This document shows positions 33,987 through 49,406 of a DNA stretch of 64,000 nucleotides, piece after piece. Position numbers and translations under genes: made by a program. Source of the stretch: a phage; the NCBI GenBank assembly GCA_014437165.1, contig GCA_014437165.1_4090.3; one strand, given 5' to 3'. Below the pieces are notes generated by a model that was not told the DNA's origin, did not search any database, and worked only from the letters and a program-made list of their open reading frames with translations. Numbering within the stretch: position 1 is the first letter of the stretch; every line of letters begins with the position of its first letter.

Positions 33987-34071
33987 GTATTGACAAAGTA
34001 TCTTAGTACTGTATAATAGTTTACATCAAGGGGGGAATGGTTCCCCTCCTAACAAAGAGAGAGAAATAAAA

Positions 34072-34254: not shown

Positions 34255-34343
34255 GTATTGACAAAGTATCTTAGTACTGTATAATAGTTTACATCAAGCG
34301 AGGGGAATGGTTCCCCTCCTAACTAAAAGAGAGAGAAATAAAA

Positions 34344-34667: not shown

Positions 34668-34762
34668 TAGAATCCATTTAAAGTACTATTTGACATTGCC
34701 CAGATAGTACTTTATAATAGACTCTAACTTGTAGTACTAACTCAACTAATAGGATGTATACC

Positions 34763-35158: not shown

Positions 35159-35180
35159 TAACTTGCAGTACTAACAACAC

Positions 35181-35205
35181 GGCGGGATCAGTTCCCGCCT
35201 TTTTT
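35181..35205 (+). terminator. intrinsic terminator GGCGGGATCAGTTCCCGCC + TTTTTT
   Basis: hairpin + T-run. Confidence 0.7.
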
Positions 35206-35220
35206 ATAGGATAAACTAAA

Positions 35221-35475
35221 ATGATTAAGGTACAACTATCTAAAGATAATATCTTGCGGGTACACTATAAAGCACCACAGAGAATCATCACAAAGGCCGT
35301 ACAGCTTGCTAATGAGTTTATTAATGGTAACCTATTACCAAGGAAGTTAAGCAACGGAAAACTGCGTGTAATCGATGTAGACACTAACAACAGAATAGTA
35401 ATTGAGAACACAGGAAAGATAAACCTATATGAACACCAACAATATAATAAGAAAATAAAACTAATATCACGTTGA
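35221..35475 (+). CDS. hypothetical protein (84 aa)
   Basis: SD AGGATAAA. Confidence 0.55.
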   Translation: MIKVQLSKDNILRVHYKAPQRIITKAVQLANEFINGNLLPRKLSNGKLRVIDVDTNNRIVIENTGKINLYEHQQYNKKIKLISR

Positions 35476-35528
35476 CAGTACTCAATTGTTTTAGTATTAT
35501 GTACACATACCAACACGGGAGAAACAAA

Positions 35529-35747
35529 ATGAAATTATCTAAAATCGAAAAGAAAACTATTGATGAAGCAGTTAAGCACGGTTATACCTTTCGTAATGAT
35601 TCACATTTTACCAATTTTCAACAAGGCCAAAGGACTATTAAAAAACTAATTGACAAAGGTTTATTAGTTAAAGTAGATAACGGTAACGGCATTGAGTATC
35701 AGCCAACCCAAGACGCATTATCTTTAAAGAAATATGCAATTATCTAA
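35529..35747 (+). CDS. hypothetical protein; paralog of 35805-36047
   Basis: identical promoter/leader sequence; ATG after GGGAGAAA. Confidence 0.55.
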   Translation: MKLSKIEKKTIDEAVKHGYTFRNDSHFTNFQQGQRTIKKLIDKGLLVKVDNGNGIEYQPTQDALSLKKYAII

Positions 35748-35804
35748 TTGACAGTACTCAAATGTTTTAGTACTATATGTACATACCAACACGGGGAAAA
35801 CAAA

Positions 35805-36047
35805 ATGATTACTTTAGAAAAACGTATCAAAGAAACTACATCGCTGGTGGAACTGTTAACAGTACTGAAATGCCGTACTACTCGGTTTAGTACACCGGAC
35901 TTTATTAATATGGTTGATGTTAACGGTCGTTATCGCATTGCAGTAGAACAAGGAACAGCGAAAGTATTCAGTACTAAAAACACTAAGGAAGTGATTCACG
36001 CTGTAAGTGTTAAAAAAGTAGTTGCCATTGATAGTAAAGTACTGTAA
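35805..36047 (+). CDS. hypothetical protein; paralog of 35529-35747
   Basis: duplicated promoter TTGACAGTACTCAAtTGTTTTAGTA-TAT…. Confidence 0.55.
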   Translation: MITLEKRIKETTSLVELLTVLKCRTTRFSTPDFINMVDVNGRYRIAVEQGTAKVFSTKNTKEVIHAVSVKKVVAIDSKVL

Positions 36048-36078
36048 GATAGTTTCATTAACTCAAGGAGAACATGCA

Positions 36079-36663
36079 ATGCGTAATTATACTAAATTCA
36101 TCCGTACCCTGTCAGAAATGGAAACCAACAAAGAGATCCTTTCAGCTTGTCGGTTAGCTGGTCTGGAGATCATCGGTGCGGGTTCTTCCCGTATTGTATT
36201 CGCTTTAAATGATCGGTTAGTGATCAAGGTCGCGAATTGTGATGCGGGTGTAGAACAAAATGAAACTGAATGTAAGGTATGGAATTTTTTAGATTATGAC
36301 CGCCCTCAATTGAAACAGTACTTTGCAAAGGTGCATATGCATTTATGCGATCCTGATAATATGTTTATCGTTATGGATCGGTTGAGTACTGCAAGTAAAG
36401 GCAGTGTAAAGCACGTAAACGCGTGCAATGAATTAAAGTACAATATTAAACGTAATGCCATTGAACGCCAGCACCGCTTTGCTGATGCACTACAACACGT
36501 TGATGATACATTATCAACACTAACGATAAGAGATATCAGAAAACAGAATATCGGCCAGGATCGTAATGGCCTTATTAAAGTACTTGATTACGGTTTAACC
36601 CGCAATATCTGGAATCAGTACTATAAAAAGCGTGATGTAGAAGCAAGTAAGGTAACACGATAA
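36079..36663 (+). CDS. minimal protein-kinase-like protein
   Basis: G-loop IGAGSSRIVF, LVIKVA lysine, catalytic-loop-like IRDIRKQNIG, DFG-like KVLDYG; SD AAGGAGA. Confidence 0.6.
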   Translation: MRNYTKFIRTLSEMETNKEILSACRLAGLEIIGAGSSRIVFALNDRLVIKVANCDAGVEQNETECKVWNFLDYDRPQLKQYFAKVHMHLCDPDNMFIVMDRLSTASKGSVKHVNACNELKYNIKRNAIERQHRFADALQHVDDTLSTLTIRDIRKQNIGQDRNGLIKVLDYGLTRNIWNQYYKKRDVEASKVTR

Positions 36664-36884
36664 AAAAGATTAAAAAAGGGATTGACTCCGGTCAGTCCCT
36701 TTGCTATTATATATTCATTGAGAGATAACTCACTGACCCATAGGGTGCGGAAGTGTATCTATTATATAAGTATTCAGTACTGAAAACTATTTGATAAAAA
36801 GTACTTGCATTGTACTTAGAATCAAGTATAATGTTTTACATAGAGAGGGGGAAATGGTTCTCCCTGGTAATAAGGAATAAAATC

Positions 36885-37106
36885 ATGACTACAATGACTT
36901 GCATTTACGCTTCCAATCTTCTGAATGATGCGGCCTTTAATGTTGATTCAGAATATCAATGTTATCGGGATGAAAATAAAAAAGTTTTTGTAGTTGATAA
37001 TAATGGTTTCCATATTGAATTACAATCCGGTTTCACTGGTGTTGATGGTAAATCAGTGTGGGGCGTACAGGATGATAAAGGCACATATCATTTTAAACGT
37101 AATTAA
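36885..37106 (+). CDS. hypothetical protein (73 aa)
   Basis: ATG 36885 after SD AAGGAA. Confidence 0.55.
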   Translation: MTTMTCIYASNLLNDAAFNVDSEYQCYRDENKKVFVVDNNGFHIELQSGFTGVDGKSVWGVQDDKGTYHFKRN

Positions 37107-37189
37107 GTATTGACAAAGTATATCAGTACTGTATAATAGTTTACATCAAGGGGAGAATAGTTCTCCCCAATACAATAAGGAATAAAATC

Positions 37190-37597
37190 ATGTCTACTAC
37201 TACTAATCTCGCTCGGAACATCACTAACGATAAAAATCATGCTGCAATGGTTGTAGCTTACATTGAAGCTATGCAATTCAGTACTGTACATAATGATAAC
37301 GGCGATTACCTGGAAGATTATGAGTTATCTGATGAAGCACGTCAAGCGGCGGTGATTGCATGTTCTCGCTTCATTGAGAAACACGGTAATGATCTGGAAG
37401 TAGTTCGCGGTATGTTTATTGATTACGGTTATGAGCAAGCTGGTCATGATCTGTTCCTTACCCGCGAAGGTCACGGAACTGGTTTTTGGGATCGTGGTTT
37501 AGGTCACTATGGCGATGTATTCACGAAGTACTGCGAAGAAATCAACGTTTGCGATCCCTATGTAGGCGATGATAATCTAATCTATATGGGCGAATAA
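37190..37597 (+). CDS. hypothetical protein (135 aa)
   Basis: cassette + SD. Confidence 0.6.
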   Translation: MSTTTNLARNITNDKNHAAMVVAYIEAMQFSTVHNDNGDYLEDYELSDEARQAAVIACSRFIEKHGNDLEVVRGMFIDYGYEQAGHDLFLTREGHGTGFWDRGLGHYGDVFTKYCEEINVCDPYVGDDNLIYMGE

Positions 37598-37684
37598 AAG
37601 TATTTGACAAAGTATATCAGTACTGTATAATAGTTTACATCAAGGGGAGAATAGTTCTCCCCGATACTAAAAGGAAACAAAATT

Positions 37685-37957
37685 ATGTCTAGTTACTCCG
37701 CTACTATGATCATTAAAGATATGAACGGTAATCCTACTTCTGCTGGTGGATCATTTGGAAACATTAATTTAGATGGTCGGTTATCCATGCAATCAGCCAT
37801 CGATGCAGCGAAAGAAGTTTTTAAGAATGAATGTACTGTTAGTAAGCTGGATTATATGGGATTCGCTATCGAGAAAACTAATCGTTTTGTGAACTACAAA
37901 AATCCACTGATGATTGATACTAACCTGAAAGCTAACGAAGTGGGGTACTTATTATGA
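37685..37957 (+). CDS. hypothetical protein (90 aa)
   Basis: cassette + SD. Confidence 0.6.
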   Translation: MSSYSATMIIKDMNGNPTSAGGSFGNINLDGRLSMQSAIDAAKEVFKNECTVSKLDYMGFAIEKTNRFVNYKNPLMIDTNLKANEVGYLL

Positions 37958-38145
37958 CAGTAGAAGAAGTTAAAAAAGTACTGGCAGTACTACGCTATCA
38001 TAATCATTGCAAGGTGAAGAATGATCCTGATTATGTTGATTCATCCCTGGAGGAAGACACATTAAACGCAATAAGCCATATGCAAACATTAGCAAAGCGT
38101 ATGACCGAAAAGAATAGACCGGACTATATCGGAAATAAAATTTAA
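37954..38145 (+). CDS. hypothetical protein (63 aa)
   Basis: ATGA coupling. Confidence 0.5.
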   Translation: MTVEEVKKVLAVLRYHNHCKVKNDPDYVDSSLEEDTLNAISHMQTLAKRMTEKNRPDYIGNKI

Positions 38146-38231
38146 AAAGTACTTGCATTGTAGTTAGATTAACGTATAATGTTTTACATAGAGCGGGGGA
38201 ATAGTTCTCCCGCCAGTCCAGGAGATACACC

Positions 38232-38495
38232 ATGAACACTATCGAAATCACTATCAATGCACACGTATACGACAACGTAGTACTGCAAACTACTATGACC
38301 GCTAATGATACCAGTACTTTGCGGAATACCGTTGTAAGTGCTGTATGTGCTGCAATCGGTGATGTAGCCCTGGAAAATGCAGAACACATCAACAACGGTT
38401 TCACTATGTGCAAACGTGATAACGCAAAACATATCATCTTAGAAGGTTACGGCGGTGTAGAATATAACCTTTATATGAAAAAAGTACTTGCATAA
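38232..38495 (+). CDS. hypothetical protein (87 aa)
   Basis: cassette + SD CAGGAGA. Confidence 0.55.
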   Translation: MNTIEITINAHVYDNVVLQTTMTANDTSTLRNTVVSAVCAAIGDVALENAEHINNGFTMCKRDNAKHIILEGYGGVEYNLYMKKVLA

Positions 38496-38562
38496 TAACT
38501 AAAACAAAGTATAATGTTTTGCATAGGGGGAGATATCCTCCCCCACTAAAAGGAGTAATAAA

Positions 38563-38787
38563 ATGGCTAACTTTGATGAACTAATGCGGGAAGTAGCTAA
38601 CCTGGCAGAAGAGAAGAAATCATTCGATTCTATCTATAACACCGCTCATCGTGATTCAGTACTGGCATGTACTCAGGATCAAAAAGATGAACTGATCGCC
38701 ACCTACCATGAAGCGTGGCAGTACTACCGCCAATGGGAGAAAGAAGAAAGTGAGTCTACCATTGACGGCCTCAATAATCTAATCTAA
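38563..38787 (+). CDS. hypothetical acidic protein (74 aa)
   Basis: cassette + SD AAGGAG. Confidence 0.6.
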   Translation: MANFDELMREVANLAEEKKSFDSIYNTAHRDSVLACTQDQKDELIATYHEAWQYYRQWEKEESESTIDGLNNLI

Positions 38788-38798
38788 AAGTTTTATTT

Positions 38799-38828
38799 CA
38801 GTACTATTGACATAGCTTGATAGTACTG
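38799..38828 (+). promoter_or_regulatory. promoter with operator-like palindrome (copy 3)
   Basis: CAGTACTATTGACATAGCTTGATAGTACTG. Confidence 0.55.
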
Positions 38829-38863
38829 ATGTAATAACTTTACTAACTACAAGGGGAAACATA

Positions 38864-39121
38864 ATGGAACAGTTCACACAATATCGGGTAAATCCTCAAG
38901 CTATGGCCTACGTAGAAGACCATAAAACGTTACCAGTACTAACACCAATTAAAGGCCATATCTATCGTGCAATGTCATGGAATACGGCCCAGGATGGATA
39001 TACTACCGCTGGCGTGGGTATGTATTGCGGGAATGGTGAATGGTTTGATCCAAATAATCCGGTAGCCATTGACAGTACTGAAAAAATGAAATGGGCCGAC
39101 TACATCGAAGATATTTCATAA
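38864..39121 (+). CDS. hypothetical protein (85 aa)
   Basis: SD AAGGGGAAA. Confidence 0.55.
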   Translation: MEQFTQYRVNPQAMAYVEDHKTLPVLTPIKGHIYRAMSWNTAQDGYTTAGVGMYCGNGEWFDPNNPVAIDSTEKMKWADYIEDIS

Positions 39122-39210
39122 AACTATTTGACAGTACTAACCAGTAATGTATAATGTTTTACATAGAGCGGGGGAATAGTTCTCCCGCCAATAGTTTGGA
39201 GTAAAACATT

Positions 39211-39411
39211 ATGTCTATCGCTATCGCCCTGGTTGAAGTACTGAAAGAAGCTAAAGCCAACCAGATCGACGTAAAGATCCAGGAACTACAAAACGGCTTA
39301 ATCGGCTGTACTTGTACCGCTGGTGGAGCGGCAGACTATCGAGAACACGAATCACTCGAATCACTGGTTCGGTATCTTACCATGATCGTTGATGATTGGA
39401 GAATCATCTAA
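39211..39411 (+). CDS. hypothetical protein (66 aa)
   Basis: cassette + SD. Confidence 0.55.
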   Translation: MSIAIALVEVLKEAKANQIDVKIQELQNGLIGCTCTAGGAADYREHESLESLVRYLTMIVDDWRII

Positions 39412-39657
39412 CAAAAAAGAATAAAAAAAGGAGTTGACTTCGGTCCGCTCCTTTAGTACTATATACGCATAGACAAAAACTAGCCCACAGGGTGCATAGG
39501 TGTATCTAAAATATATAGTTAATAACGGTGAGTAACTATCTGCTGGTGGAACTAAAACTATTAATAAAAAAAGTATTGACAAAGTATATCAGTACTGCGA
39601 TAATGTATCTCGTAGGGCGGCAATGGTGCGACGGCCCACAAAGTTAGGAGATTCAAA

Positions 39658-39990
39658 ATGAGTACTTCAATCGCTATCGTTAAAGCTTTCATCCGTACCA
39701 ATGTTTCATCTGTATTCATCGACGGTCTGGATCGGGAAGTAGAATACTCAATCATTATCGCACAGACTGCAAACGGTGCTCGGTATATCCTTAATGATAG
39801 TGAAGCAAATCACTACTACTTCACTAAAGCTACTGGCTTTAAACGCATCGATGCTGACGTAGTATACGCTAAGATGAATAAGCTGGTAGACAAGATTAAC
39901 GCGAAAGGTACTATCGATTTACAGTACTGGACCGAAACCGATCCAGAATATGGATCTCACCGCTACCTGAATCCAGGTATTAAAATGTAA
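39658..39990 (+). CDS. hypothetical protein (110 aa)
   Basis: SD TAGGAGA. Confidence 0.6.
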   Translation: MSTSIAIVKAFIRTNVSSVFIDGLDREVEYSIIIAQTANGARYILNDSEANHYYFTKATGFKRIDADVVYAKMNKLVDKINAKGTIDLQYWTETDPEYGSHRYLNPGIKM

Positions 39991-40079
39991 AAAGTACTTG
40001 CATAGTACTTAGAATCAAGTATAATGTTTTACATAGAGAGGGGGAAATGGTTCTCCCTCCTAAATTAAGGAGTTTTATC

Positions 40080-40481
40080 ATGACCTTCTCAATCAATTCC
40101 TTCGCTGACGTTTTAGTACTGGCTCGGACTTTTGGTAAAGATGCACTGGAGTACGCTGTAAGTAATGGTACTATCCAACCGGAACAGTGCCGCATCATTG
40201 GAAACTGCAAACGTTGGGCGGTATCCAATACTATTGCACTGGAAAACTTCCACGATGGCAACAATGAATATTCTGTTGATGTAGTATTCGAAGCCGTTGA
40301 TCTCGGCGGTATCTATAATACTAACCTGAATGATGTGCGTATCGTTCGCACGGGGTTCGGTGCTTATGATGTATCTATTCGTGAAGCTATGAACACCGGA
40401 TACATTAGCAAGGACTTACTTGCTCACATCATGCAGCTGTGTACGGAACGTAACGAAGCACGCACTATCTTAGGACTGTAA
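40080..40481 (+). CDS. hypothetical protein (133 aa)
   Basis: ATG 40080 after SD AAGGAG. Confidence 0.6.
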   Translation: MTFSINSFADVLVLARTFGKDALEYAVSNGTIQPEQCRIIGNCKRWAVSNTIALENFHDGNNEYSVDVVFEAVDLGGIYNTNLNDVRIVRTGFGAYDVSIREAMNTGYISKDLLAHIMQLCTERNEARTILGL

Positions 40482-40549
40482 GCGTTACACATCACCAAAC
40501 ATCATAGGCCGCCTTGTAGCGGCCTTAACTATATCAGGAGTACATACAT

Positions 40550-40759
40550 ATGTTCTATACAGTATACAGCGTCCTAGGCACTATTGCAGGCGTACATGAT
40601 AACGTCAATGATGCTATGCGTACAGTACTGCAACAGGTTCCACTAAAGCCTAAGACCATTAAGCAGATGACAGCACGACTAACCAGGGCGACCGATGGCG
40701 TGGAAGTATGGCAGGACTACGGGGATACACAGATAATCGTTAGCGTAACGAAGGATTAA
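40550..40759 (+). CDS. hypothetical protein (69 aa)
   Basis: SD CAGGAG. Confidence 0.55.
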   Translation: MFYTVYSVLGTIAGVHDNVNDAMRTVLQQVPLKPKTIKQMTARLTRATDGVEVWQDYGDTQIIVSVTKD

Positions 40760-40788
40760 TGCGTAAAGGGATCTAGTACTGATTCAGA

Positions 40789-40953
40789 AAAAAGTCAAGG
40801 CGTTTTTAAAATTATGCGTTAAAAAAATGCATAGGTAATCCCTTGACTTTTTTGAAATAAAAGGGATTGGACTATGGCAAAATGCGTAGGGGGCTAAAGG
40901 GCGGGTAACCTTAGCGACTTCGAAAAAAGGAGTGATAGGGGCTTGACTTTTTA
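40789..40953. repeat. boundary element: 12-bp inverted repeat AAAAAGTCAAGG / CCTTGACTTTTT plus third CTTGACTTTTT copy
   Basis: read directly in gene-free 280-bp segment. Confidence 0.5.
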
Positions 40954-41042
40954 TATAATTCTGATAATATATAGTCTATATTATATTTCATTCATATTTT
41001 ATATGTTAGTTACATTAACTCAACATTAGAGGTCACAGAACT

Positions 41043-41408
41043 ATGAATCCATCATCTAATAAATGTGGTACTTCCTTTAATGTAGAATGGTTATTTTTTA
41101 AACCCACATCTACTATAAAATCATTCATTGCTGATATCACTGAAGCACCTGACACCCTTGTATCAGTTGTTAACAACAATAACGAAATGGTATTTTCTAT
41201 TGATGAAAATCAATATGCAGATATCTATTCATTGAGTCGTATAAAAAACTTAGTTGTACTGTCCGAGAAAGCGTTCGCAAAAGAAGCGAAGAAATGGGAT
41301 TTTAAACTTCCTATTGAATTGGTACGTGAAATACAAAAATTGGGATGTACTACTATTGAGAATTGTAAAGACTCACGTGCTACTGGGAATATTTCATTTG
41401 AAGTATAA
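41043..41408 (+). CDS. hypothetical protein (121 aa)
   Basis: SD AGAGG. Confidence 0.55.
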   Translation: MNPSSNKCGTSFNVEWLFFKPTSTIKSFIADITEAPDTLVSVVNNNNEMVFSIDENQYADIYSLSRIKNLVVLSEKAFAKEAKKWDFKLPIELVREIQKLGCTTIENCKDSRATGNISFEV

Positions 41409-41431
41409 TGCATTTATATGAACAAAACATC

Positions 41432-41460
41432 TTGACATCATGCCTCACATGGGGTATGAT
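41432..41460 (+). promoter_or_regulatory. sigma70-type promoter TTGACA-17-TATGAT heading the family B array
   Basis: hexamers at 41432-41437 and 41455-41460. Confidence 0.55.
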
Positions 41461-41494
41461 GTTTTTTCACATATGAACCTATGGATTTTATCCT

Positions 41495-41692
41495 ATGCGT
41501 ATTTTAACTAAAGAACAGCACCACGAAAGACTTATCAATAACATGGCTATGATAATGTATAAGTCCCATGACCGTGGTATTGCCTATAAGCGTGAATTAA
41601 TTATGGCACTATTCATTGGAACTAACTTTCAGGAAAGGTATGTCAACGATTGGATTTGGTATTTAATTGAAGATATAACGAGTAAACTATGA
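41495..41692 (+). CDS. family B small protein (LGTNYQ core)
   Basis: …FIGTNFQERYVNDWIWYLIEDITSKL. Confidence 0.65.
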   Translation: MRILTKEQHHERLINNMAMIMYKSHDRGIAYKRELIMALFIGTNFQERYVNDWIWYLIEDITSKL

Positions 41693-41889
41693 AAAAGCGT
41701 ATTTTAAATAAAGAAGAATATCAATCACTGTTACGTAAAAACTTCACAAAGATTTATAATACAGACACACACGTAGAACGAATGGAGTTATACATTTTGA
41801 TTACATTGGGAACAAACTATCAGGGTAGATGGGTGTGGCAATATATGGACTCCTTAAAAAATGAAATATTGTCCAAGAGGAAACAATGA
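41689..41889 (+). CDS. family B small protein
   Basis: ATGA overlap; …LGTNYQGRWV…LKNEILSKR. Confidence 0.65.
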   Translation: MKKRILNKEEYQSLLRKNFTKIYNTDTHVERMELYILITLGTNYQGRWVWQYMDSLKNEILSKRKQ

Positions 41890-42095
41890 AAACTATAACA
41901 CGAACCCAATCATACGGTCTTATCTTGAAATACATGGACTTAATGGTGGATATCAGCAAAGACCTTCCTAAAACTGAAATTGAAGTTGCAAGAGCAGAGA
42001 TCCGCATGTTGGCTGTACTGAACACAAACCATCAGGAAGATTATGTTGAAGAATGGATTCGATTTTTAATAGAAGATATAAAGAGTAAACTATGA
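41886..42095 (+). CDS. family B small protein
   Basis: ATGA overlap; …NTNHQEDYVEEWIRFLIEDIKSKL. Confidence 0.65.
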   Translation: MKTITRTQSYGLILKYMDLMVDISKDLPKTEIEVARAEIRMLAVLNTNHQEDYVEEWIRFLIEDIKSKL

Positions 42096-42307
42096 TTATT
42101 ATAGAAAACTCATATCAATATACTGAACGCATCGCTGCCAGACAACTTGAAATCCTCATAATATACGAAGAGACTTCTGATTTAAACTTAGCCGAGGTAT
42201 TGGAAAATGATATACTATTGGGTGCATTCTTAGGAACAGACTATCAGAAGTATTATGAGGAAAAGTATTTGTCATCTCTTGAGAAATATATCAGGAGCAA
42301 ATTATGA
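42092..42307 (+). CDS. family B small protein
   Basis: coupled; LGTDYQKYY. Confidence 0.65.
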   Translation: MIIIENSYQYTERIAARQLEILIIYEETSDLNLAEVLENDILLGAFLGTDYQKYYEEKYLSSLEKYIRSKL

Positions 42308-42516
42308 TTTTTTTAACACCAGAAGAATATAAGAAACGTTTCAATTCCGCACAGGGTGAAATCTTACTTATATACCTTTCAAATGCAGACCTTAACTTAT
42401 CAAGGGTATTAGAAAAAGATTTACTTATGGGTGCATTCCTTGATACAGACTTTCAGGTGTATTATGTAGGGGAATACTTAATTGCACTTCAGAATTATAT
42501 CAGGAGTAAACTATGA
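42304..42516 (+). CDS. family B small protein
   Basis: coupled; near-duplicate of previous. Confidence 0.65.
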   Translation: MIFLTPEEYKKRFNSAQGEILLIYLSNADLNLSRVLEKDLLMGAFLDTDFQVYYVGEYLIALQNYIRSKL

Positions 42517-42740
42517 AACATTTAAGTAACTCCGAGAAGAATAAAATTATCATAGCTGCAATAAACAAATATTTTACACTTCCTCACAAAGAAGGTTTAT
42601 GTGTAAGGGAACACAGGATAAACACCACCGATAAACGCATGATGGCTGTACTGGGGACGAACTTCCAGGAAGAGTATGTTATTGCACACATAGTTGCACT
42701 CAAGAATTACATTATGGACAAATGTAATGAACATCATTAA
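42513..42740 (+). CDS. family B small protein
   Basis: LGTNFQEEYV…HIVALKNYIMDKC. Confidence 0.65.
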   Translation: MKHLSNSEKNKIIIAAINKYFTLPHKEGLCVREHRINTTDKRMMAVLGTNFQEEYVIAHIVALKNYIMDKCNEHH

Positions 42741-42951
42741 TAACTTTGAATACGAGGCCCGTGCTAAGAGTGCCAGAAAAAAAGAGAACACCATTTACTT
42801 CACTATGATGTACTTACAATGGACTGAAATTGAAGAAAAGGTTGCTGAAGTATGGATGTTGGAATTCATGGGGACGCAGTATCAGAATAGGTTTGCGGGT
42901 GAGTATATCAATGTTCTTATGAAACAAATAGAAAGAAAGGAAAAGAACTAA
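42727..42951 (+). CDS. family B small protein
   Basis: ATG 42727 (Met12 of track ORF); MGTQYQNRF. Confidence 0.6.
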   Translation: MNIINNFEYEARAKSARKKENTIYFTMMYLQWTEIEEKVAEVWMLEFMGTQYQNRFAGEYINVLMKQIERKEKN

Positions 42952-43109
42952 TGGTTTTCATTAACATATCTGACCAACTCGATACTAAACTAGAAGTCGA
43001 GCAGAGTGAGGGATGGATGCTGTACTTTCTTGGAACTTCTCATCAAAATTTTTATATCCATGAACACATAGTTGCACTCAAGAATTACATTATGGACAAA
43101 TGCAAATGA
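42951..43109 (+). CDS. family B small protein (52 aa; below track cutoff)
   Basis: TAATG junction; …LGTSHQNFYIHEHIVALKNYIMDKCK. Confidence 0.5.
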   Translation: MVFINISDQLDTKLEVEQSEGWMLYFLGTSHQNFYIHEHIVALKNYIMDKCK

Positions 43110-43363
43110 AATACTTAACACAAGATGAATATTCACTTAGAATTCGAAAGCTCACCCCAGAAGCAAGAGTAATCTACGATGACCCCACCCTTACATGGAA
43201 CCAAATGCGAGCTAAAGTTAATGAGCTATGGTTGCTGTACTTTATGGGGACTCAATATCAAGATAAGTTTTGCAAAGAATTTGTCGATCAATTAATGAAT
43301 GTTATACAGGATAAACTAGATGAATATTGGCTCGCAAAACATGAAGACTTTATCAGGAGTTGA
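43100..43363 (+). CDS. family B small protein
   Basis: MGTQYQDKF. Confidence 0.65.
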   Translation: MQMKYLTQDEYSLRIRKLTPEARVIYDDPTLTWNQMRAKVNELWLLYFMGTQYQDKFCKEFVDQLMNVIQDKLDEYWLAKHEDFIRS

Positions 43364-43592
43364 GTATCAAACTGCCCTCTTCTCTCTTATTAACACCCTT
43401 AGAAAAAACAATGCATTACATGGTGCACCTGAAGTGGATGTTATCAACGGTGATGTTTATCTTATGAAATTCATTGGAACAAACTATCAAGATCTGTTCA
43501 TTCAACGATACTTGGCAGCATTAAGAAACCAAATCCAATATAAAACCCAGAGAGCCAAAAAAGAATGGAATAAACAATGCGACAAAGACTAA
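43320..43592 (+). CDS. family B small protein
   Basis: IGTNYQDLF; alternative start 43341. Confidence 0.6.
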   Translation: MNIGSQNMKTLSGVEYQTALFSLINTLRKNNALHGAPEVDVINGDVYLMKFIGTNYQDLFIQRYLAALRNQIQYKTQRAKKEWNKQCDKD

Positions 43593-43825
43593 ATCACAAA
43601 ATGTATTGTAAACTATTGCAGACACTGGCACAGAAACACTATGACACGGTATCTGAAATATTACCCTATGATATCATGCGTTTACTTCACTGTGAGGCCG
43701 AGATGCTTGTACTGATGACAGGCACTGATAAAACAGCAATCGCCAGATCGATAGAGCAATATATTGATGCACACTGCCAACACATGAGAACCGAAATCTG
43801 GAGGAAAGAGAATGATAATTCTTAA
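43577..43825 (+). CDS. family B small protein (divergent, MTGTDKT)
   Basis: tandem position, same size. Confidence 0.55.
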   Translation: MRQRLNHKMYCKLLQTLAQKHYDTVSEILPYDIMRLLHCEAEMLVLMTGTDKTAIARSIEQYIDAHCQHMRTEIWRKENDNS

Positions 43826-44027
43826 TGAGTATCAGTATCATTGGAGGTTACAAACTATCAAATCAAAAGTGTATAGTATTGTGTTAAACAAATCTATTGC
43901 ACAAGAGGACAAATGTGTTATAATAGCTGAAATGAAGTTGGGTGTATTCGTAGGGACAAACTATCAAAACATCTACACTGACGTATTATTAAGTTCCTTA
44001 CGTAACAAGGTGGTATCCAAAATATGA
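43812..44027 (+). CDS. family B small protein
   Basis: VGTNYQNIY. Confidence 0.65.
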   Translation: MIILNEYQYHWRLQTIKSKVYSIVLNKSIAQEDKCVIIAEMKLGVFVGTNYQNIYTDVLLSSLRNKVVSKI

Positions 44028-44242
44028 GAAATTTACAAGGCTTTGAATACATCAGACTCCTGAAAACATGTGGAAGCAGAAGGAGAATGATATCAAGCGA
44101 TAAGAGCATCCAAGCTAACCTTAAGCACGCACTAGTAACTGAACTCTATGTAGGTGCACTCTTAGGCACAAACTATCAACAAATGTATGTAGATCTATGG
44201 ATTGACGCTCTACAGAAAGAGGTTAAAAGTAAATGCAAATGA
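44024..44242 (+). CDS. family B small protein
   Basis: LGTNYQQMY. Confidence 0.65.
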   Translation: MRNLQGFEYIRLLKTCGSRRRMISSDKSIQANLKHALVTELYVGALLGTNYQQMYVDLWIDALQKEVKSKCK

Positions 44243-44451
44243 TTAATTTAAGTAAAGACGAATTTTATGTTATACTGGCGAAAACTTATCCAGCACGTAA
44301 GGCCGTTTATGATAGTCACATTATTGAACCCTCAAAGAAGTTGATTTTAGTAAATGAGATAAAGATGCTTTCAGTCTTAGGAACAAACTATCAAGAGAAT
44401 GCTGTACTGATGTTAATTGATGCCCTCCAGCGAGAGGTTAAACGTAAATGA
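44233..44451 (+). CDS. family B small protein
   Basis: LGTNYQENA. Confidence 0.65.
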   Translation: MQMINLSKDEFYVILAKTYPARKAVYDSHIIEPSKKLILVNEIKMLSVLGTNYQENAVLMLIDALQREVKRK

Positions 44452-44678
44452 AAATGATTCATTTAACTTACCATGAATATCAAAAACGTTTAAATGCATC
44501 CAGAGATATAAGGATTCAAATATTCAATAACAAAAGATTGAAGCCTGATATCAGGAAAATCAAAATCATAGAAGCCGTGTTGTGCAACTTCCTAGGGACT
44601 AACTATCAGGAAGGTAAGGTAGAAAACTATCTTATAGAACTCATGAATAGTATTGAAAATAAATGTAAGGGTAATTAA
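44448..44678 (+). CDS. family B small protein
   Basis: LGTNYQEGK. Confidence 0.65.
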   Translation: MKMIHLTYHEYQKRLNASRDIRIQIFNNKRLKPDIRKIKIIEAVLCNFLGTNYQEGKVENYLIELMNSIENKCKGN

Positions 44679-44679
44679 C

Positions 44680-44919
44680 ATGAAAATGATTAAATTATCT
44701 CAAGCAAAATATAAAGAACGCCTGGTGAAAATTGCACCTGGACTTAATGAAATCCATCACGGAGAAGTCATTAAACACGGAAATAAGATGATTATGAAAC
44801 TTGAGTTAAAGGTGGGTGCATTCATAGGAACAAACTATCAGGAGTATTATGTAGATGAATACATAATCGCACTTAAGAGATACATTGGAAGAAAACTATA
44901 TCTACAAACTAAAGAATAG
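44680..44919 (+). CDS. family B small protein
   Basis: ATG 44680 preferred over TTG track start 44653; IGTNYQEYY. Confidence 0.6.
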   Translation: MKMIKLSQAKYKERLVKIAPGLNEIHHGEVIKHGNKMIMKLELKVGAFIGTNYQEYYVDEYIIALKRYIGRKLYLQTKE

Positions 44920-44948
44920 TATTGAAAATAAATGTAAGGGTAATTAAC

Positions 44949-45212
44949 ATGCAAATGATCAATTTAAGTAAAGATGAATATACCGAGCGTATGACAAAAA
45001 TTACGCACAAACGTAATACAATCTATCACAACCCAGAAATTCAACACAGTAAGAAAATGATTATGATGCGTGAGTTAAAGATGGGTGTATTCTTAGGAAC
45101 AAACTATCAAGATACAGAAGTAAATCGCTTAATCGCGGAGTTACTACTGGAAATCAAAGGTAAGCTGTACTTTTATCAAATGACCCAACCACTAAGGTGT
45201 ACTGATCGATGA
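44949..45212 (+). CDS. family B small protein
   Basis: ATG 44949; 37-bp junction identical to 44646-44682. Confidence 0.6.
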   Translation: MQMINLSKDEYTERMTKITHKRNTIYHNPEIQHSKKMIMMRELKMGVFLGTNYQDTEVNRLIAELLLEIKGKLYFYQMTQPLRCTDR

Positions 45213-45460
45213 ATACTATGAATAAAATTAATAAAATCGACTTAGCAGAAAGTTTTGCCAGAATGGGGGAAGCTCTGAAAAGATACGAAAAGGAATATGG
45301 TCATTTAAGCTTTTCTATAGAAAAGAGATATGAACTGGAAACAGAGTTTAAAATGCAGAGTCTCTTAGGAACACAATATCAAACAAGATATGTTCAAACT
45401 TGGATTGATTGTTTAATCCAGACAATTCATGTAAGGAACATTAAATGCAAAATGAAATGA
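45209..45460 (+). CDS. family B small protein
   Basis: LGTQYQTRY. Confidence 0.65.
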   Translation: MNTMNKINKIDLAESFARMGEALKRYEKEYGHLSFSIEKRYELETEFKMQSLLGTQYQTRYVQTWIDCLIQTIHVRNIKCKMK

Positions 45461-45699
45461 TATACTTAACCTATAATGAATACGTCGAGAGATTAGTTCG
45501 TGCCAAGAGATATACCAATAAACGTCCAATTGACCTAAACCAAACCCCAGCAGAAAGGAGTGCAGAAGTATTATTCCAATCACTACCATATCTTCTGGGA
45601 ACTGATAGACAAGAGGAATATGTTGCACGTATGATTAGATATCTTAAAATCACTATTAAGGAAAAAGTAAATGCAAATGAAATACTTAACAGACGATGA
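45445..45699 (+). CDS. family B small protein (LGTDRQEEY)
   Basis: paralog of next gene. Confidence 0.65.
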   Translation: MQNEMIYLTYNEYVERLVRAKRYTNKRPIDLNQTPAERSAEVLFQSLPYLLGTDRQEEYVARMIRYLKITIKEKVNANEILNRR

Positions 45700-45922
45700 G
45701 TTAAAAGAACGACTAATTAAATCAAGAAAACATACAAATCAACTTCCAAACGACACAAACAAGTCTCCAGCGGAAAGGAGTGCAGAAGTTTTATACATTC
45801 AACTCATGTACTTTCTTGGCACTGACAGACAAGAGTATTACATTGAAAGTATGCTTCGATATCTTAAATTCTCTATAAAGGAAAAGATACATGATCAAGT
45901 ATTTAAAAATCCTAACTGCTAA
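45671..45922 (+). CDS. family B small protein (LGTDRQEYY)
   Basis: paralog of previous. Confidence 0.65.
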   Translation: MQMKYLTDDELKERLIKSRKHTNQLPNDTNKSPAERSAEVLYIQLMYFLGTDRQEYYIESMLRYLKFSIKEKIHDQVFKNPNC

Positions 45923-46133
45923 TGAATATCATAAGATTGTAATGAAGACTAATAGTGCTTACGCTAAAAAATCAAACCCAAAGTACATACTGGAACACAC
46001 ATTTGAAGAACGTCAATTAGCTTTAGTTGAAGCAAAACTTCTTGCACTATTAGGAACAAACTATCAGGAAGAATACAATAGAAAACTAATATACCTTTTA
46101 ACTAAACATATAAGAAAAAGAAAAAATGCATGA
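45891..46133 (+). CDS. family B small protein
   Basis: LGTNYQEEY. Confidence 0.65.
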   Translation: MIKYLKILTANEYHKIVMKTNSAYAKKSNPKYILEHTFEERQLALVEAKLLALLGTNYQEEYNRKLIYLLTKHIRKRKNA

Positions 46134-46360
46134 AACACTTGACAGATGATGAACATGGGCTTATAGTAATGGATGTAATCAACATCGAATACAAAAAGTT
46201 GATACGCTATCGTTGTTATGAAGATAAGCAACTCGTTCTAGCAGAACAGAAGTTGTTTCGACTCTTAAACACAAACTACCAAGCACAATACGAAGAATCG
46301 TATATGTACCTTTTGGCGAGGAAAGCAAAAAGAGATTATGAAAATTTTAAGCAAAGGTGA
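46130..46360 (+). CDS. family B small protein
   Basis: LNTNYQAQY. Confidence 0.65.
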   Translation: MKHLTDDEHGLIVMDVINIEYKKLIRYRCYEDKQLVLAEQKLFRLLNTNYQAQYEESYMYLLARKAKRDYENFKQR

Positions 46361-46559
46361 TTCAGTAATATTACTTATAGAGAGTTCAAGTAAATTCTTA
46401 AACATAACACTGTCTGATATAGATGAAGATGACAAAGAAGTACTGAGAGCAGATTTAAGAGTACTGTTACATATCGGAACAAACCTACAAGAAGAATATG
46501 TAGAGTGCTACATCAATGAACTTAAAGAATCAGTACTGAGAAAATGCAAATGCAAATGA
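46338..46559 (+). CDS. family B small protein
   Basis: IGTNLQEEY. Confidence 0.65.
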   Translation: MKILSKGDSVILLIESSSKFLNITLSDIDEDDKEVLRADLRVLLHIGTNLQEEYVECYINELKESVLRKCKCK

Positions 46560-46777
46560 AAATCATTACCGATGTAGAATACCTAACAATCATAAATGGA
46601 CTGTTTTTGAAGCTCTTCGTCATTAACACATCAGATATACCAGATATGGATAAAATTATTAAGAGAAATGAAGTCTATGTTCTAGCTACCCTTGGAACGA
46701 ACTATCAAGAACACGACATTAAAGATTATATTAATACACTTAAACGAGCTATTGAACTAAAATGCCAAAACCACTAG
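46544..46777 (+). CDS. family B small protein
   Basis: LGTNYQEHD. Confidence 0.65.
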   Translation: MQMQMKIITDVEYLTIINGLFLKLFVINTSDIPDMDKIIKRNEVYVLATLGTNYQEHDIKDYINTLKRAIELKCQNH

Positions 46778-46977
46778 GAACAGCAGAATACATTGAACTC
46801 ATGGGATTACACTTCTCATCCTTTCAGAAACTTATGCGAGAATCAAAGAATGATTTAGAATATACCATCAGAGGTTCCGATTTAAGAATGCTTCTCACCC
46901 TAGACACAGATTCCCAAGAGAGATTTGTCAATGAGCATATTAGAGCACTTTTAATGGAAATTCAAAGTAAATTATGA
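46762..46977 (+). CDS. family B small protein
   Basis: LDTDSQERF. Confidence 0.6.
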   Translation: MPKPLGTAEYIELMGLHFSSFQKLMRESKNDLEYTIRGSDLRMLLTLDTDSQERFVNEHIRALLMEIQSKL

Positions 46978-47189
46978 AGATAATATCAAACCAAGAGTAC
47001 TTGGCACTATTCAGGAAGAATAATCACAAATATATGGCACTTGATTCAAGAACTGATATAAGTGAACTTGAAAAAAATCTTTTGCGTTCAGATATGATAG
47101 TACTGACACTCTTAGGAACACAGCATCAAGAGAGAACTGTTAATTCACACATAGGTATTCTTATACAGATTGTACAGGAAAAGATATGA
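46974..47189 (+). CDS. family B small protein
   Basis: LGTQHQERT. Confidence 0.65.
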   Translation: MKIISNQEYLALFRKNNHKYMALDSRTDISELEKNLLRSDMIVLTLLGTQHQERTVNSHIGILIQIVQEKI

Positions 47190-47407
47190 GAATCATATCA
47201 CAACAAGATATTCTTAAGTTCACAAGGGTTCATGCATCTGAATTTGATGCTATATTATCAAAAAGTTACAATGACCCTTATACACAAGATGTACATTACA
47301 GTGAATTATGGATGTATATACTTTTAGGTACAAATAAGCAAGAGCAAGCCGTACAGAAGTATTTGACAGCTTTACGTGATGCTACAGCTAATGGAGTATG
47401 TGTTTAA
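47186..47407 (+). CDS. family B small protein
   Basis: LGTNKQEQA. Confidence 0.65.
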   Translation: MRIISQQDILKFTRVHASEFDAILSKSYNDPYTQDVHYSELWMYILLGTNKQEQAVQKYLTALRDATANGVCV

Positions 47408-47408
47408 T

Positions 47409-47651
47409 ATGAAAGTACTGACAGAACTAGAAATGTATCATAGATTTAATAAGTACTATCATTTACTTAAGCCTATACAGAGGATTAAATGTCCATTTGA
47501 AGAGAAACAGGTTTTAATCTATGAGCACAAGTTCTTTGTATCATTAGGTACAGATCAACAAGAGTACTATTTGACGTTGTACTTGATTACATTAATAGAT
47601 TTAATTCACTATAAAACCAAACAAGCTAATAAAGAGAAATATGAAAACTAA
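47409..47651 (+). CDS. family B small protein
   Basis: ATG 47409 directly after previous stop; LGTDQQEYY. Confidence 0.6.
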   Translation: MKVLTELEMYHRFNKYYHLLKPIQRIKCPFEEKQVLIYEHKFFVSLGTDQQEYYLTLYLITLIDLIHYKTKQANKEKYEN

Positions 47652-48660: not shown

Positions 48661-48977
48661 AATTTAATATAGCAAAAACATCGAGTATATGTATTTTTGG
48701 TTATGCTGATGAGTTAGGTGATATTGACATTCTTTTGTACAAAAAGGATGGTGTTATGCATTTCAAGTACCAGGATGAAGAGGCAGACAATTATCCTTTA
48801 CCTAATTTAGTACAAATGCAGGAAGATGAATTATTCCAGTACAGCTTAGTATACGACATTGATATTTGCACGATGCCAGTACTAATTAGTATTCAAAAAG
48901 TGATGCTCGATATGTATGATAAGCTAATACAAGGTACATCAGGGAGAATCATTGAAATCGATATACAAGACAATTAA
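48651..48977 (+). CDS. family C protein (…EDELFQYSLVYDIDI…)
   Basis: SD GAGGTGGAG; core motif. Confidence 0.65.
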   Translation: MEMKFNIAKTSSICIFGYADELGDIDILLYKKDGVMHFKYQDEEADNYPLPNLVQMQEDELFQYSLVYDIDICTMPVLISIQKVMLDMYDKLIQGTSGRIIEIDIQDN

Positions 48978-49170
48978 TCAAGAATGGAAGACCCAAAAGT
49001 ACAGGGAATTCAACAGGAATTTTACAAAAGATGCATTGAATTTAAAAACAACAGAGTTTGATATGTTTATTTTTCTTGGAACACGTTCACAAGAACAATT
49101 TGTTCATTATTATATAAATTCGTTGCGAACGGAGATAGTATGCAAAACACAGGGTATTATAAAAAGGTAA
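48952..49170 (+). CDS. family B small protein (dispersed copy); apparent TTG start
   Basis: FLGTRSQEQFV…; SD AGGGAGAA 5 nt before TTG; no in-frame ATG. Confidence 0.5.
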   Translation: MKSIYKTINQEWKTQKYREFNRNFTKDALNLKTTEFDMFIFLGTRSQEQFVHYYINSLRTEIVCKTQGIIKR

Positions 49171-49406
49171 ACCAATATTTGTACGCTACAAAGTACAGGG
49201 ATTTTTGTTTAAAGGGTGGTGATGAAGATTTTTCTTTGCGATTATCAGAATTTAATCTGTTATTTTATCTTGGTACAAAAGAACAAGAAGAAATGGCACA
49301 GAAATTTATCAAGCACCTTTTACAAAAAATTAATATGCAAATTTTGATGCTTAAGTTACAGAATGAGATAAATGAATATGAATCCAGAAATAGTTCAGGA
49401 TCTTAA
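49140..49406 (+). CDS. family B small protein (dispersed copy)
   Basis: YLGTKEQEEMAQKFIKHLLQKI. Confidence 0.55.
   Translation: MQNTGYYKKVNQYLYATKYRDFCLKGGDEDFSLRLSEFNLLFYLGTKEQEEMAQKFIKHLLQKINMQILMLKLQNEINEYESRNSSGS

What the first reader, a model, noticed from the sequence alone, without database searches (positions are those of the whole stretch)
41495..47651. Family B: 28 tandem translationally coupled ~70-aa genes with an LGTNYQ core
Every ORF has a variable ~35-aa N-terminus followed by (L/F/I)-(L/I/M)-G-T-(N/D/Q)-(Y/F/H)-Q-(E/D)-x-(Y/F)-V-x5-I-x2-L-x3-I-x-(S/R)-K. Start and stop codons overlap throughout, and four more copies lie at 48952-49406 and 61997-62387. I do not recognise the family. 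An array this large of diversified mini-proteins suggests a reservoir of specificity variants, for example anti-defence or immunity or inhibitor-type proteins, or virion internal proteins.
Basis: seen in the sequence. Interest (0 to 1): 0.8.

Follow-up and report, generated by a model that had tools for sequence, protein, structure and literature searches.

The report
Tandem array of 28 mini-proteins
A giant E. coli virus carries, right after its terminal repeat, one operon of 28 old, diverged copies of a roughly 70-residue three-helix protein of unknown function; it is most likely an early-made set of small binding proteins aimed at different host targets, but that role is inferred, not tested.

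Summary
At 41495-47651 there are 28 head-to-tail + strand genes of one family, and four more copies lie at 48952-49406 and 61997-62387. Twenty-four of the 27 junctions overlap. A leave-one-out profile recovers 29 of 30 members; member 11 is degenerate.

The window comes from a PBECO4/121Q-like jumbo coliphage (Asteriusvirus). The family is PHROG 4148, function unknown. It has no Pfam, NCBIfam, PADLOC or PDB relative. AlphaFold gives a plain three-helix bundle (pLDDT 97.6) with no specific structural neighbour.

The array is the first operon after the roughly 21-kb direct terminal repeat and sits behind a sigma-70-type promoter. Paralogs are about 24% identical and old (dS about 1). Each has a collinear ortholog in other phages (omega about 0.33). 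The locus diverges faster than its flanks. Alleles are replaced and swapped, and contiguous copy number ranges from 12 to 29. RaK2-like phages hold about 12 scattered copies. No member was found in the phAPEC6 virion proteome.

Best reading, inferred and at moderate confidence: an early-expressed repertoire of diversified small binders for host takeover or counter-defence. It resembles the terminal multigene families of large eukaryotic DNA viruses.

The parts
19815..40911 (+). Direct terminal repeat (DTR) equivalent, the immediate-early region just upstream of the array. It holds about 50 small genes, each with its own promoter.
   Evidence: The experimentally confirmed physical left end of fEgEco12 and the last base of its right DTR copy (PMC13070987) map to window positions 19815 and 40911. 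The region has 15 perfect TTGACA-16/17-TATAAT promoters on the + strand, and 107 promoter-like sites against 69 +/- 7 expected.
40990..41492 (+). Window-specific insertion of about 500 bp between the DTR end and array gene 1. It carries ORF 41043-41408 (121 aa), a member of a second paralog family (PHROG 13866-like).
   Evidence: DNA alignment to CRJP21, 121Q, ph0011, Sharanji, JNE01 and fEgEco12 stops at window positions 40956-40991 and resumes at 41492. BLASTP clustering places the ORF in the second family.
41432..41460 (+). Sigma-70-type promoter of the array operon (TTGACA-17-TATGAT, 11 of 12 matches).
   Evidence: Relatives have a different but equally placed site, TTGACT-16-TATTAT or TAAAAT, about 58 nt before the same ATG, with an AAGGGAG Shine-Dalgarno sequence.
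41495..47651 (+). The array: 28 tandem family genes forming one putative operon of 6.16 kb.
   Evidence: Gene coordinates:
41495-41692, 41689-41889, 41886-42095, 42092-42307, 42304-42516, 42513-42740, 42727-42951, 42951-43109, 43106-43363, 43341-43592, 43577-43825, 43812-44027, 44024-44242, 44239-44451, 44448-44678, 44680-44919, 44949-45212, 45209-45460, 45457-45699, 45677-45922, 45891-46133, 46130-46360, 46338-46559, 46556-46777, 46762-46977, 46974-47189, 47186-47407, 47409-47651.

Support: ORFs, start codons and junctions, HMM E 8e-18 to 3e-26, leave-one-out, PHROG 4148 E down to 9e-27, AF2 three-helix bundle at pLDDT 97.6.
43577..43825 (+). Member 11, a degenerate or divergent in-array gene.
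   Evidence: It is not recovered by the leave-one-out HMM and has no PHROG hit. hhalign gives a weak in-register match, P about 1e-3. It is conserved at 86-100% in other phages.
42290..42307 (+). Example of junction type 1. The C-terminal codons of a gene (I-R-S-K-L-stop, ...AGGAGCAAATTATGA) also serve as the Shine-Dalgarno sequence and the overlapping ATG of the next gene.
   Evidence: AGGAG at -11 before starts 42304 and 42513. A second junction type is AAATGCAAATGA (K-C-K-stop over M-Q-M), for example at 44233-44242 and 46544-46559.
46139..46167 (+). Possible internal promoter (TTGACA-17-TATAGT, 11 of 12) at the start of gene 22. Its significance is unproven.
   Evidence: Promoter-like sites are not enriched overall in 38000-50500 (60 found against 62 expected).
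48952..49170 (+). Dispersed member 29.
   Evidence: HMM E 7e-21. PHROG 4148 E 7e-9.
49140..49406 (+). Dispersed member 30.
   Evidence: HMM E 2e-17. Leave-one-out E 4e-7.
61997..62218 (+). Dispersed member 31 (VGSNKQ variant, with S in place of the otherwise invariant T).
   Evidence: HMM E 1e-6, and it was not in the training set. ORF.
62196..62387 (+). Dispersed member 32.
   Evidence: HMM E 5e-13, and it was not in the training set. PHROG 4148 E 1.5e-16.

Best explanation
The locus is a multigene family of a jumbo phage: one early operon encoding 28 ancient, individually retained paralogs of a roughly 70-residue soluble three-helix-bundle protein, with 4 more copies nearby.

Proposed mechanism:
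1. After DNA entry, host sigma-70 RNA polymerase starts at the promoter just past the left terminal repeat and makes one polycistronic mRNA of about 6.2 kb. This step is inferred from promoters and position.
2. Ribosomes translate the 28 cistrons by coupling or re-initiation across overlapping stop and start codons. The conserved C-terminal codons of each gene act as the ribosome-binding site of the next. The sequence shows the arrangement; the coupling itself is inferred.
3. Each product folds into the same scaffold. The conserved residues appear to be the hydrophobic core and the helix-capping, turn-forming LGTNYQE and L-T-x-x-E-Y motifs at one pole. The remaining surface, including net charge, differs from copy to copy. 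The model and alignment show the pattern; the structural role of the motifs is inferred.
4. Each copy acts stoichiometrically, without catalysis, by binding a different host macromolecule or a different variant of one. The targets would be host-takeover targets, defence proteins or toxins. The repertoire as a whole would then set how many host genotypes the phage can overcome. This step is inferred.

The locus evolves like a cassette array. Whole genes are swapped, replaced by divergent alleles, deleted or fused, while each cassette stays under purifying selection.
For: Reality and coding status:
- establish the genes.
- Pooled dN/dS of positional orthologs is 0.32-0.37 in four phage comparisons.

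Early operon:
- The array starts 98 bp after the experimentally defined DTR end in fEgEco12, and 584 bp after it in the window.
- A sigma-70-like promoter sits directly upstream in the window and in relatives.
- The preceding DTR is packed with perfect consensus promoters.
- No convincing + strand terminator lies inside the array.

Binder-type scaffold:
- AF2 gives pLDDT 97.6 and pTM 0.81 with three helices.
- There is no catalytic or DNA-binding family hit in Pfam, NCBIfam, PADLOC or PDB.
- pI ranges from 4.4 to 9.9, and hydropathy is soluble (GRAVY -0.89 to +0.14, negative in 28 of 30).
- Hydrophobic periodicity and the conserved motifs sit at helix starts.

Non-redundant, old repertoire:
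- Paralogs average 24% identity, yet each has a collinear ortholog at 61-100%.
- The closest paralog pairs already have dS about 0.9-1.1.

Fast-evolving accessory locus:
- Window versus ph0011: array dN 0.137 and dS 0.43, against upstream flank dN 0.019 and dS 0.11.
- In JNE01, 7 kb of upstream flank is 94% identical in DNA while the array is essentially unalignable.
- Genes 4 and 5 are in swapped order in 121Q and ph0011.
- A natural fusion of genes 21 and 22 exists.
- Contiguous copy number is 28 (window, CRJP21), 29 (Sharanji), 27 (ph0011), 23 (121Q), about 17-19 (JNE01) and 12 (metagenomic contig L012). RaK2 and L014 have only scattered clusters of 1-3 genes.

Not virion-borne.
Against: - No target, interaction, expression profile or phenotype is known for any member. 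I found no Asteriusvirus transcriptome.
- No similarity to any characterised anti-defence or host-takeover protein.
- The higher divergence of the array could reflect weaker constraint on tiny proteins rather than an arms race. Omega of 0.33 indicates purifying selection, not positive selection.
- Many members are 100% identical across a large set of phages, which is not what a fast arms race predicts.
- JNE01 is divergent over much of its genome (59% coverage against PBECO4), so its replaced array is not unique to this locus.
- The invariant T and near-invariant Q could mark a shared functional site rather than a purely structural one. I could not inspect the model coordinates to decide.
Confidence: 0.4

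Rival explanations
1. The proteins serve the phage's own programme rather than targeting diverse host proteins. They could be subunits or adaptors that dock through the conserved pole (N-terminus plus LGTNYQ loop) onto one common partner, for example host RNA polymerase, a phage replication or transcription factor, or each other. They would then form hetero-oligomers made in fixed ratios by translational coupling.
For: The conserved polar residues (T invariant, Q at least 90%, plus N, Y and E) cluster at one end of the bundle together with the conserved N-terminus. Tight translational coupling is typical of complex subunits. Two RaK2 members carry an extra C-terminal domain, as an adaptor module might.
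Against: A fixed complex should not tolerate copy numbers from 12 to 29, gene-order swaps and wholesale allele replacement. RaK2 has the genes scattered, not coupled. The AF2 model of a natural two-member fusion gave no confident inter-domain packing, though the test was weak (pTM 0.53).
Confidence: 0.15
2. The family is a largely dispensable lineage-specific expansion: 'junk' or weakly beneficial small ORFs tolerated in a 350-kb genome, with no specific individual functions.
For: Omega of about 0.33 is higher than in the flanks, where it is 0.13-0.17. Copy number varies and one member is degenerate. Half of the window's ORFs belong to paralog families of unknown function.
Against: The duplicates are old (dS about 1), yet all 28 reading frames are intact. 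They are collinear across phages with clear purifying selection. AF2 predicts a well-packed fold from a shallow alignment. Neutral ORFs of this age would have decayed.
Confidence: 0.15
3. The proteins act in conflicts between viruses. They could exclude superinfecting phages, or serve as immunity or antidote proteins against toxins made by related jumbo phages or by the phage's own early region, like arrays of orphan immunity genes in bacteria.
For: The pattern is a diversified small-protein array with allele replacement. The adjacent early region encodes at least one toxin-type domain, ParE-like, at 35221-35475 with E 6e-11.
Against: No cognate polymorphic toxin family alternates with the array genes or is linked to them. 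There is no similarity to known immunity or antitoxin folds.
Confidence: 0.1
4. The proteins are small nucleic-acid-binding proteins, either helix-turn-helix-like regulators or DNA/RNA coating proteins.
For: The motif resembles a helix-G-T turn-helix, and 17 of 30 members are basic with pI above 8.
Confidence: 0.07
5. The proteins are virion internal or ejected proteins.
For: Small size and multiple copies. Jumbo phages do package many proteins.
Against: None of phAPEC6 gp467c-gp489c is among the 62 virion proteins found by mass spectrometry, although a 4.66-kDa protein was detected. The early-type promoter and position are atypical for structural genes.
Confidence: 0.03

Closest known systems
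PHROG 4148 (unannotated phage protein cluster)
   Same: This is the same family by sequence profile. Ten of ten tested canonical members hit it at E 7e-9 to 9e-27, member 32 at 1.5e-16, and RaK2-type members at 2e-4 to 3e-9.
   Different: The PHROG carries no function, structure or genomic description. Member 11 does not match it.
Multigene families at the genome ends of large eukaryotic DNA viruses (African swine fever virus MGF110/360/505; poxvirus terminal host-range families). Comparison from general knowledge.
   Same: Both are tandem paralogs next to terminal repeats. Both show copy-number and allele variation between isolates while individual members are conserved. The viral families are early-expressed host-interaction or immune-evasion genes.
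   Different: There is no sequence or fold relationship. The proteins here are far smaller single-domain proteins in one translationally coupled operon. A host-range or evasion role is not shown here.
Lineage-specific expansion of a small domain in a jumbo phage: about 35 zinc-ribbon copies in Bacillus phage G (PMC7824862)
   Same: Both are very large expansions of one tiny domain within one jumbo-phage lineage, with unknown function. The phage G copies were suggested to act as specific factors.
   Different: The fold is different (zinc ribbon against three-helix bundle), and there are no metal ligands here. The phage G copies were proposed to be transcription factors or DNA binders. A single coupled array is not described for them in the passage I read.
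Host-takeover gene blocks in or next to long terminal repeats (SPO1 terminal-redundancy module, T5 pre-early region, Kayvirus 'tre' genes). Comparison from general knowledge.
   Same: All are blocks of small genes of unknown function at the first-entering or terminal region, driven by strong host-type promoters.
   Different: Those blocks mostly hold unrelated genes with individual promoters, like the window's own DTR at 19815-40911. They are not 28 paralogs in one operon.
Small three-helix-bundle binder domains (staphylococcal protein A/Sbi-type domains, GAT and MIT domains)
   Same: Same general architecture and size. They were the nearest shapes in Foldseek against PDB. They work by surface binding and tolerate extensive surface diversification.
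   Different: The matches are not significant (E above 4, TM 0.3-0.5). There is no evidence of homology.

Membership tests
PHROG 4148 | Significant match to the family profile over most of its 74 positions. | tested here: met
   Exception: member 11 (43577-43825) has no hit.
Helix-turn-helix DNA-binding proteins | A match to an HTH profile, or structural neighbours with HTH geometry. | tested here: not met
Structurally characterised anti-defence proteins (anti-CRISPR, anti-restriction, anti-CBASS/Thoeris sponges and similar, as present in PDB) | Sequence or fold similarity to a solved member. | tested here: not met
Anti-defence or host-takeover proteins (functional class) | Demonstrated inhibition of a host defence or host process. 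| not testable with these tools
   The evidence is only circumstantial: early position and promoter, diversification, and accessory-locus behaviour.
Known defence-system components (PADLOC) | A consistent match of members to a defence protein model. | tested here: not met
   Ten models were each hit by a single member, with best E 6e-4. This is noise.
Virion internal proteins | Presence in purified virions. | tested here: not met
   Literature proteome of phAPEC6: the array orthologs gp467c-gp489c are absent from Table 1 of PMC7247149. This is indirect evidence from another strain.
Viral terminal multigene family (as a kind, not a homologous family) | Tandem paralogs adjacent to the terminal repeat. 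| tested here: met
   DTR boundary; paralogy.
Viral terminal multigene family (as a kind, not a homologous family) | Copy-number and allele variation between isolates, with members under purifying selection. | tested here: met
Viral terminal multigene family (as a kind, not a homologous family) | A role in host range or immune evasion. | not testable with these tools
   Needs genetics.
Toxin-immunity or toxin-antitoxin arrays | A cognate toxin gene paired with, or alternating with, each small gene. | tested here: not met
   The array consists of one family only.

The most novel reading that the evidence does not exclude
The array is a natural 'binder library'. It would be a cassette-structured repertoire of about 30 three-helix-bundle proteins in which each cassette neutralises a different host defence protein, toxin or takeover target. 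Cassette shuffling between co-infecting jumbo phages would re-assort host range. That would make it a new class of multi-specific counter-defence locus in phages, and a bacterial-virus counterpart of the ASFV and poxvirus multigene families.
Probability: 0.3. Interest if true: 0.8.

Novelty: new variant of a known kind. Interest (0 to 1): 0.55.

Why it matters
If the members are specific binders, a single 6-kb locus would supply about 30 ready-made inhibitors of E. coli or Salmonella proteins on one minimal scaffold, possibly of defence systems. That would help map host vulnerabilities and explain the host range of therapeutic jumbo phages.

It would also show that bacterial viruses, like large eukaryotic DNA viruses, keep terminal multigene families as host-interaction repertoires.

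Even without a known function, the locus is a clean natural case for two questions. One is how very small proteins diversify on a fixed fold. The other is how 28 cistrons are translated from one coupled message in which each C-terminal coding sequence doubles as the ribosome-binding site of the next gene.

Tried and rejected
Library searches with no informative hit:
- Pfam, NCBIfam, PADLOC and a PDB sequence profile gave nothing, or only scattered sub-threshold single hits.

Helix-turn-helix idea: the motif looks superficially like helix-Gly-turn-helix or a LuxR/sigma region 4 element. I rejected it on spacing, on the model and on the fold searches.

Hetero-dimer proxy: the AF2 model of a natural fusion of members 21 and 22 (P0001) was uninformative. 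The second domain had no alignment depth, and pTM was 0.53.

Fusion clue: the extra C-terminal domain of about 50 aa on RaK2 ORF362 and ORF372 and their relatives has no Pfam or PHROG match.

Wider homologs:
- A word-indexed search with two profiles and an exhaustive profile search of 1.84 billion representatives (93 hits, all 52-122 aa) were run.
- Every hit that carries a source name is from an Asteriusvirus or RaK2-like phage or an E. coli assembly.
- The unnamed metagenomic hits I traced to contigs (L012, L014) have a similar context. No informative fusion appeared.

Recent 'accordion' amplification: rejected, because the closest paralogs already have dS about 0.9-1.1.

Literature: searches found no description of this array and no Asteriusvirus transcriptome.

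One dN/dS script timed out and was rerun with a faster aligner.

Full report
**Source of the window**

The window is from a PBECO4/121Q-like jumbo coliphage of the genus Asteriusvirus. The array region matches 36 phage records. The best is vB_EcoM_CRJP21, at 94% identity over 100% of the query. All genes under the match are annotated 'hypothetical protein'.

**Checking the observation**

- ORF listing shows 28 consecutive + strand ORFs of 52-96 aa filling 41495-47651.
- They align over their whole length, not only the C-terminal core. The consensus is M-K-x-L-(T/S)-x-x-E-Y ... E-x-x-(M/L)-L-x-(F/L)-L-G-T-N-Y-Q-E-x-Y-V-x-x-Y-I-x-x-L-x-x-x-I-x-x-K.
- An HMM of 30 copies, searched against all 967 six-frame ORFs of the window, finds exactly 32 ORFs. 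All are on the + strand. Two were not in the training set: 61997-62218 (E 1e-6) and 62196-62387 (E 5e-13). There are no hits in other frames or in a codon-shuffled window.
- Leave-one-out recovers 29 of 30 members at E 4e-7 to 5e-21.
- The exception is member 11 (43577-43825). It has a 6-residue insertion and lacks the Q. It has no PHROG hit and aligns only weakly, though in register. It is conserved at 86-100% in other phages.
- Of the 27 junctions, 15 are ATGA overlaps, 1 is a TAATG overlap, 8 are longer overlaps and 3 are gaps of 1, 29 and 1 nt.
- The conserved C-terminal codons (…AGG AGT AAA CTA TGA = R-S-K-L-stop, or AAA TGC AAA TGA = K-C-K-stop) supply the Shine-Dalgarno sequence and start codon of the next gene. 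Part of the C-terminal 'motif' is therefore dual-coded.

**What the protein is**

- The family equals PHROG 4148, function unknown.
- Nothing consistent appears in Pfam, NCBIfam, PADLOC or PDB sequences.
- AlphaFold2 on the 30-sequence alignment gives a very confident model, pLDDT 97.6 and pTM 0.81. It has three helices (residues 6-24, 28-39 and 46-64 of member 1). A one-residue beta-bridge ties residue 2 to the invariant Thr.
- BFVD models of other members superpose on it (TM 0.66-0.98).
- The conserved polar residues lie at the starts of helices 1 and 3, which are at the same pole of an up-down-up bundle. The other conserved positions show hydrophobic heptad-like periodicity.
- I infer that the motif is mainly fold-determining (capping, turn and core). 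I could not inspect coordinates to prove this.
- Surfaces differ strongly between copies. pI runs from 4.4 to 9.9, with 7 acidic and 17 basic members. All but two have negative GRAVY (range -0.89 to +0.14), consistent with soluble proteins.

**Genomic setting**

- Asteriusviruses have direct terminal repeats of about 21 kb. [quoted passage not shown]
- Mapping those ends onto the window places the repeat at 19815-40911.
- That stretch holds about 50 small genes, each with its own promoter. It has 15 perfect TTGACA-16/17-TATAAT sites on the + strand, and 107 promoter-like sites against 69 +/- 7 expected. This is typical of an immediate-early block transcribed by host RNA polymerase.
- The array is the first unit after the repeat. 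Gene 1 starts 98 bp past the repeat end in fEgEco12. In the window it starts 584 bp past the end, because the window has a private insertion of about 500 bp.
- A sigma-70-type promoter precedes gene 1. In the window it is TTGACA-17-TATGAT at 41432-41460. In relatives it is TTGACT-16-TATTAT or TAAAAT.
- All 32 copies lie within about 21 kb after the repeat. None occurs in the next 50 kb of the closest complete genome.

**Evolution**

- Paralogs in the window average 24% identity (maximum 57%). Each has a collinear positional ortholog in CRJP21, Sharanji, ph0011 and 121Q at 61-100%.
- The closest paralog pairs already have dS about 0.9-1.1. The expansion is therefore old and is not a recent amplification.
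- Positional orthologs are under purifying selection, with pooled omega 0.32-0.37. Flanking genes have omega 0.13-0.17 upstream.
- The locus is much more diverged than its surroundings. For window versus ph0011, the array has dN 0.137 and dS 0.43, against 0.019 and 0.11 upstream.
- Divergence is mosaic. Against Sharanji most genes are 99-100% identical, but genes 9, 10 and 18 are 71%, 67% and 44%.
- In JNE01, 7 kb of upstream flank is 94% identical in DNA while the array is essentially unalignable.
- Genes 4 and 5 are in swapped order in 121Q and ph0011. A metagenomic variant fuses genes 21 and 22.
- Contiguous copy number is 28, 28, 29, 27, 23 and about 17-19 in six Asteriusviruses. It is 12 in a diverged 101-kb metagenomic contig.
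- The sister genus (RaK2) and another metagenomic lineage have about 12 members scattered as clusters of 1-3 genes in the equivalent region. Two of the RaK2 members carry an extra domain of about 50 aa.
- An exhaustive profile search of 1.84 billion representative proteins finds only 93 clusters, all 52-122 aa. Word-indexed searches add nothing outside these phages.

**Function**

No direct evidence exists. I found no transcriptome for this genus, and no paper describing the array.

The phAPEC6 virion proteome of 62 proteins includes a 4.66-kDa protein. It contains none of the array orthologs gp467c-gp489c. This argues against the packaged-protein idea.

The following features together fit best with an early-made repertoire of stoichiometric binders, each with its own target, used for host takeover or counter-defence:
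- early-type position and promoter;
- a minimal soluble binding-type scaffold;
- heterogeneous surfaces;
- long-term retention of every paralog;
- accessory-locus behaviour (allele replacement, swaps and copy-number change).

I hold this at about 0.4. Four points weigh against it:
- selection is purifying, not positive;
- many alleles are identical across many isolates;
- tiny proteins may simply be less constrained;
- the invariant Thr and Gln could mark a shared site, which would favour the common-partner or complex rival.

The other rivals are a near-neutral expansion, inter-virus immunity, and nucleic-acid binding. They are laid out with their tests in the rival and next-step sections.

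**Comparison with known systems**

By sequence the genes belong to PHROG 4148 and to nothing else.

In kind, the locus most resembles two things:
- The terminal multigene families of ASFV and poxviruses (general knowledge). These are tandem paralogs next to terminal repeats, with variable copy number and individually conserved members.
- The roughly 35-copy zinc-ribbon expansion of Bacillus phage G (PMC7824862).

It differs in fold, in its extreme compaction into one translationally coupled operon, and in having no shown role.

I rate it a new variant of a known kind. It is real, unusually large and tidy, undescribed in the literature I could search, and directly testable. Its mechanism is still inferred.

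Noticed in passing
window 4346-15962 (- strand): Nine to eleven tandem paralogs of about 380-443 aa with RCC1-like beta-propeller repeats (Pfam RCC1 E 1e-10; WD40_RLD E up to 3e-23, below the cut-off). 'DNA condensation protein' entries of about 40 kDa (gp003-010, gp549, gp551), which I take to be their orthologs on size and paralogy without mapping them, are in the phAPEC6 virion proteome.
   Followed up: partly
window 41043-41408, 47641-48977, 56334-58093, 63536-63898 (+ strand): A second paralog family of 10 members, PHROG 13866-like, function unknown. It brackets the array on both sides. One copy sits in a ~500-bp insertion (40990-41492) that is absent from six compared relatives.
   Followed up: partly
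window 19815-40911: The terminal-repeat equivalent has 15 perfect sigma-70 consensus promoters on the + strand. It also has repeated intergenic elements of about 100-240 nt, including the stem-loop AAAGGGATTGACTCCGGTCAGTCCCTTT at 33212 and 36675 and a variant at 29524. The stem contains a TTGACT -35 box.
   Followed up: partly
window 35221-35475 (+ strand): An 84-aa protein with a ParE-like toxin domain (PF24732, E 6e-11, above Pfam's cut-off) lies inside the immediate-early terminal-repeat region. It is conserved in a diverged metagenomic relative (L012 3293-3544).
   Followed up: partly
window 16517-19541, 16966-17530, 58103-61489: Three further tandem paralog families: seven genes of 60-82 aa, three of about 60 aa, and six of about 150-160 aa. 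In all, 76 of the 155 non-overlapping ORFs in the window belong to paralog families.
   Followed up: no
window 1-19814 joined to 19815 onward: The window runs from the right-end unique region through a single copy of the terminal repeat into the left-end unique region. The source is therefore a circularised or repeat-collapsed assembly, or a concatemer junction, and not the linear virion map.
   Followed up: partly
L009 (RaK2) 20001-20366 and 23645-23992; proteins P0210, P0273, P0196: Some RaK2-type family members are fused to a shared C-terminal domain of about 50 aa that has no Pfam or PHROG match.
   Followed up: partly
window 36022-36663 (+ strand): A 213-aa early-region protein with a weak, sub-threshold protein-kinase-like match (Pkinase E 3e-3).
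   Followed up: no
protein search results: Many family members come from contigs of about 345-360 kb labelled as Escherichia coli assemblies. These are whole Asteriusvirus genomes sitting in bacterial isolate assemblies, consistent with reports of lytic phage genomes in bacterial assemblies (PMC12768965).
   Followed up: no
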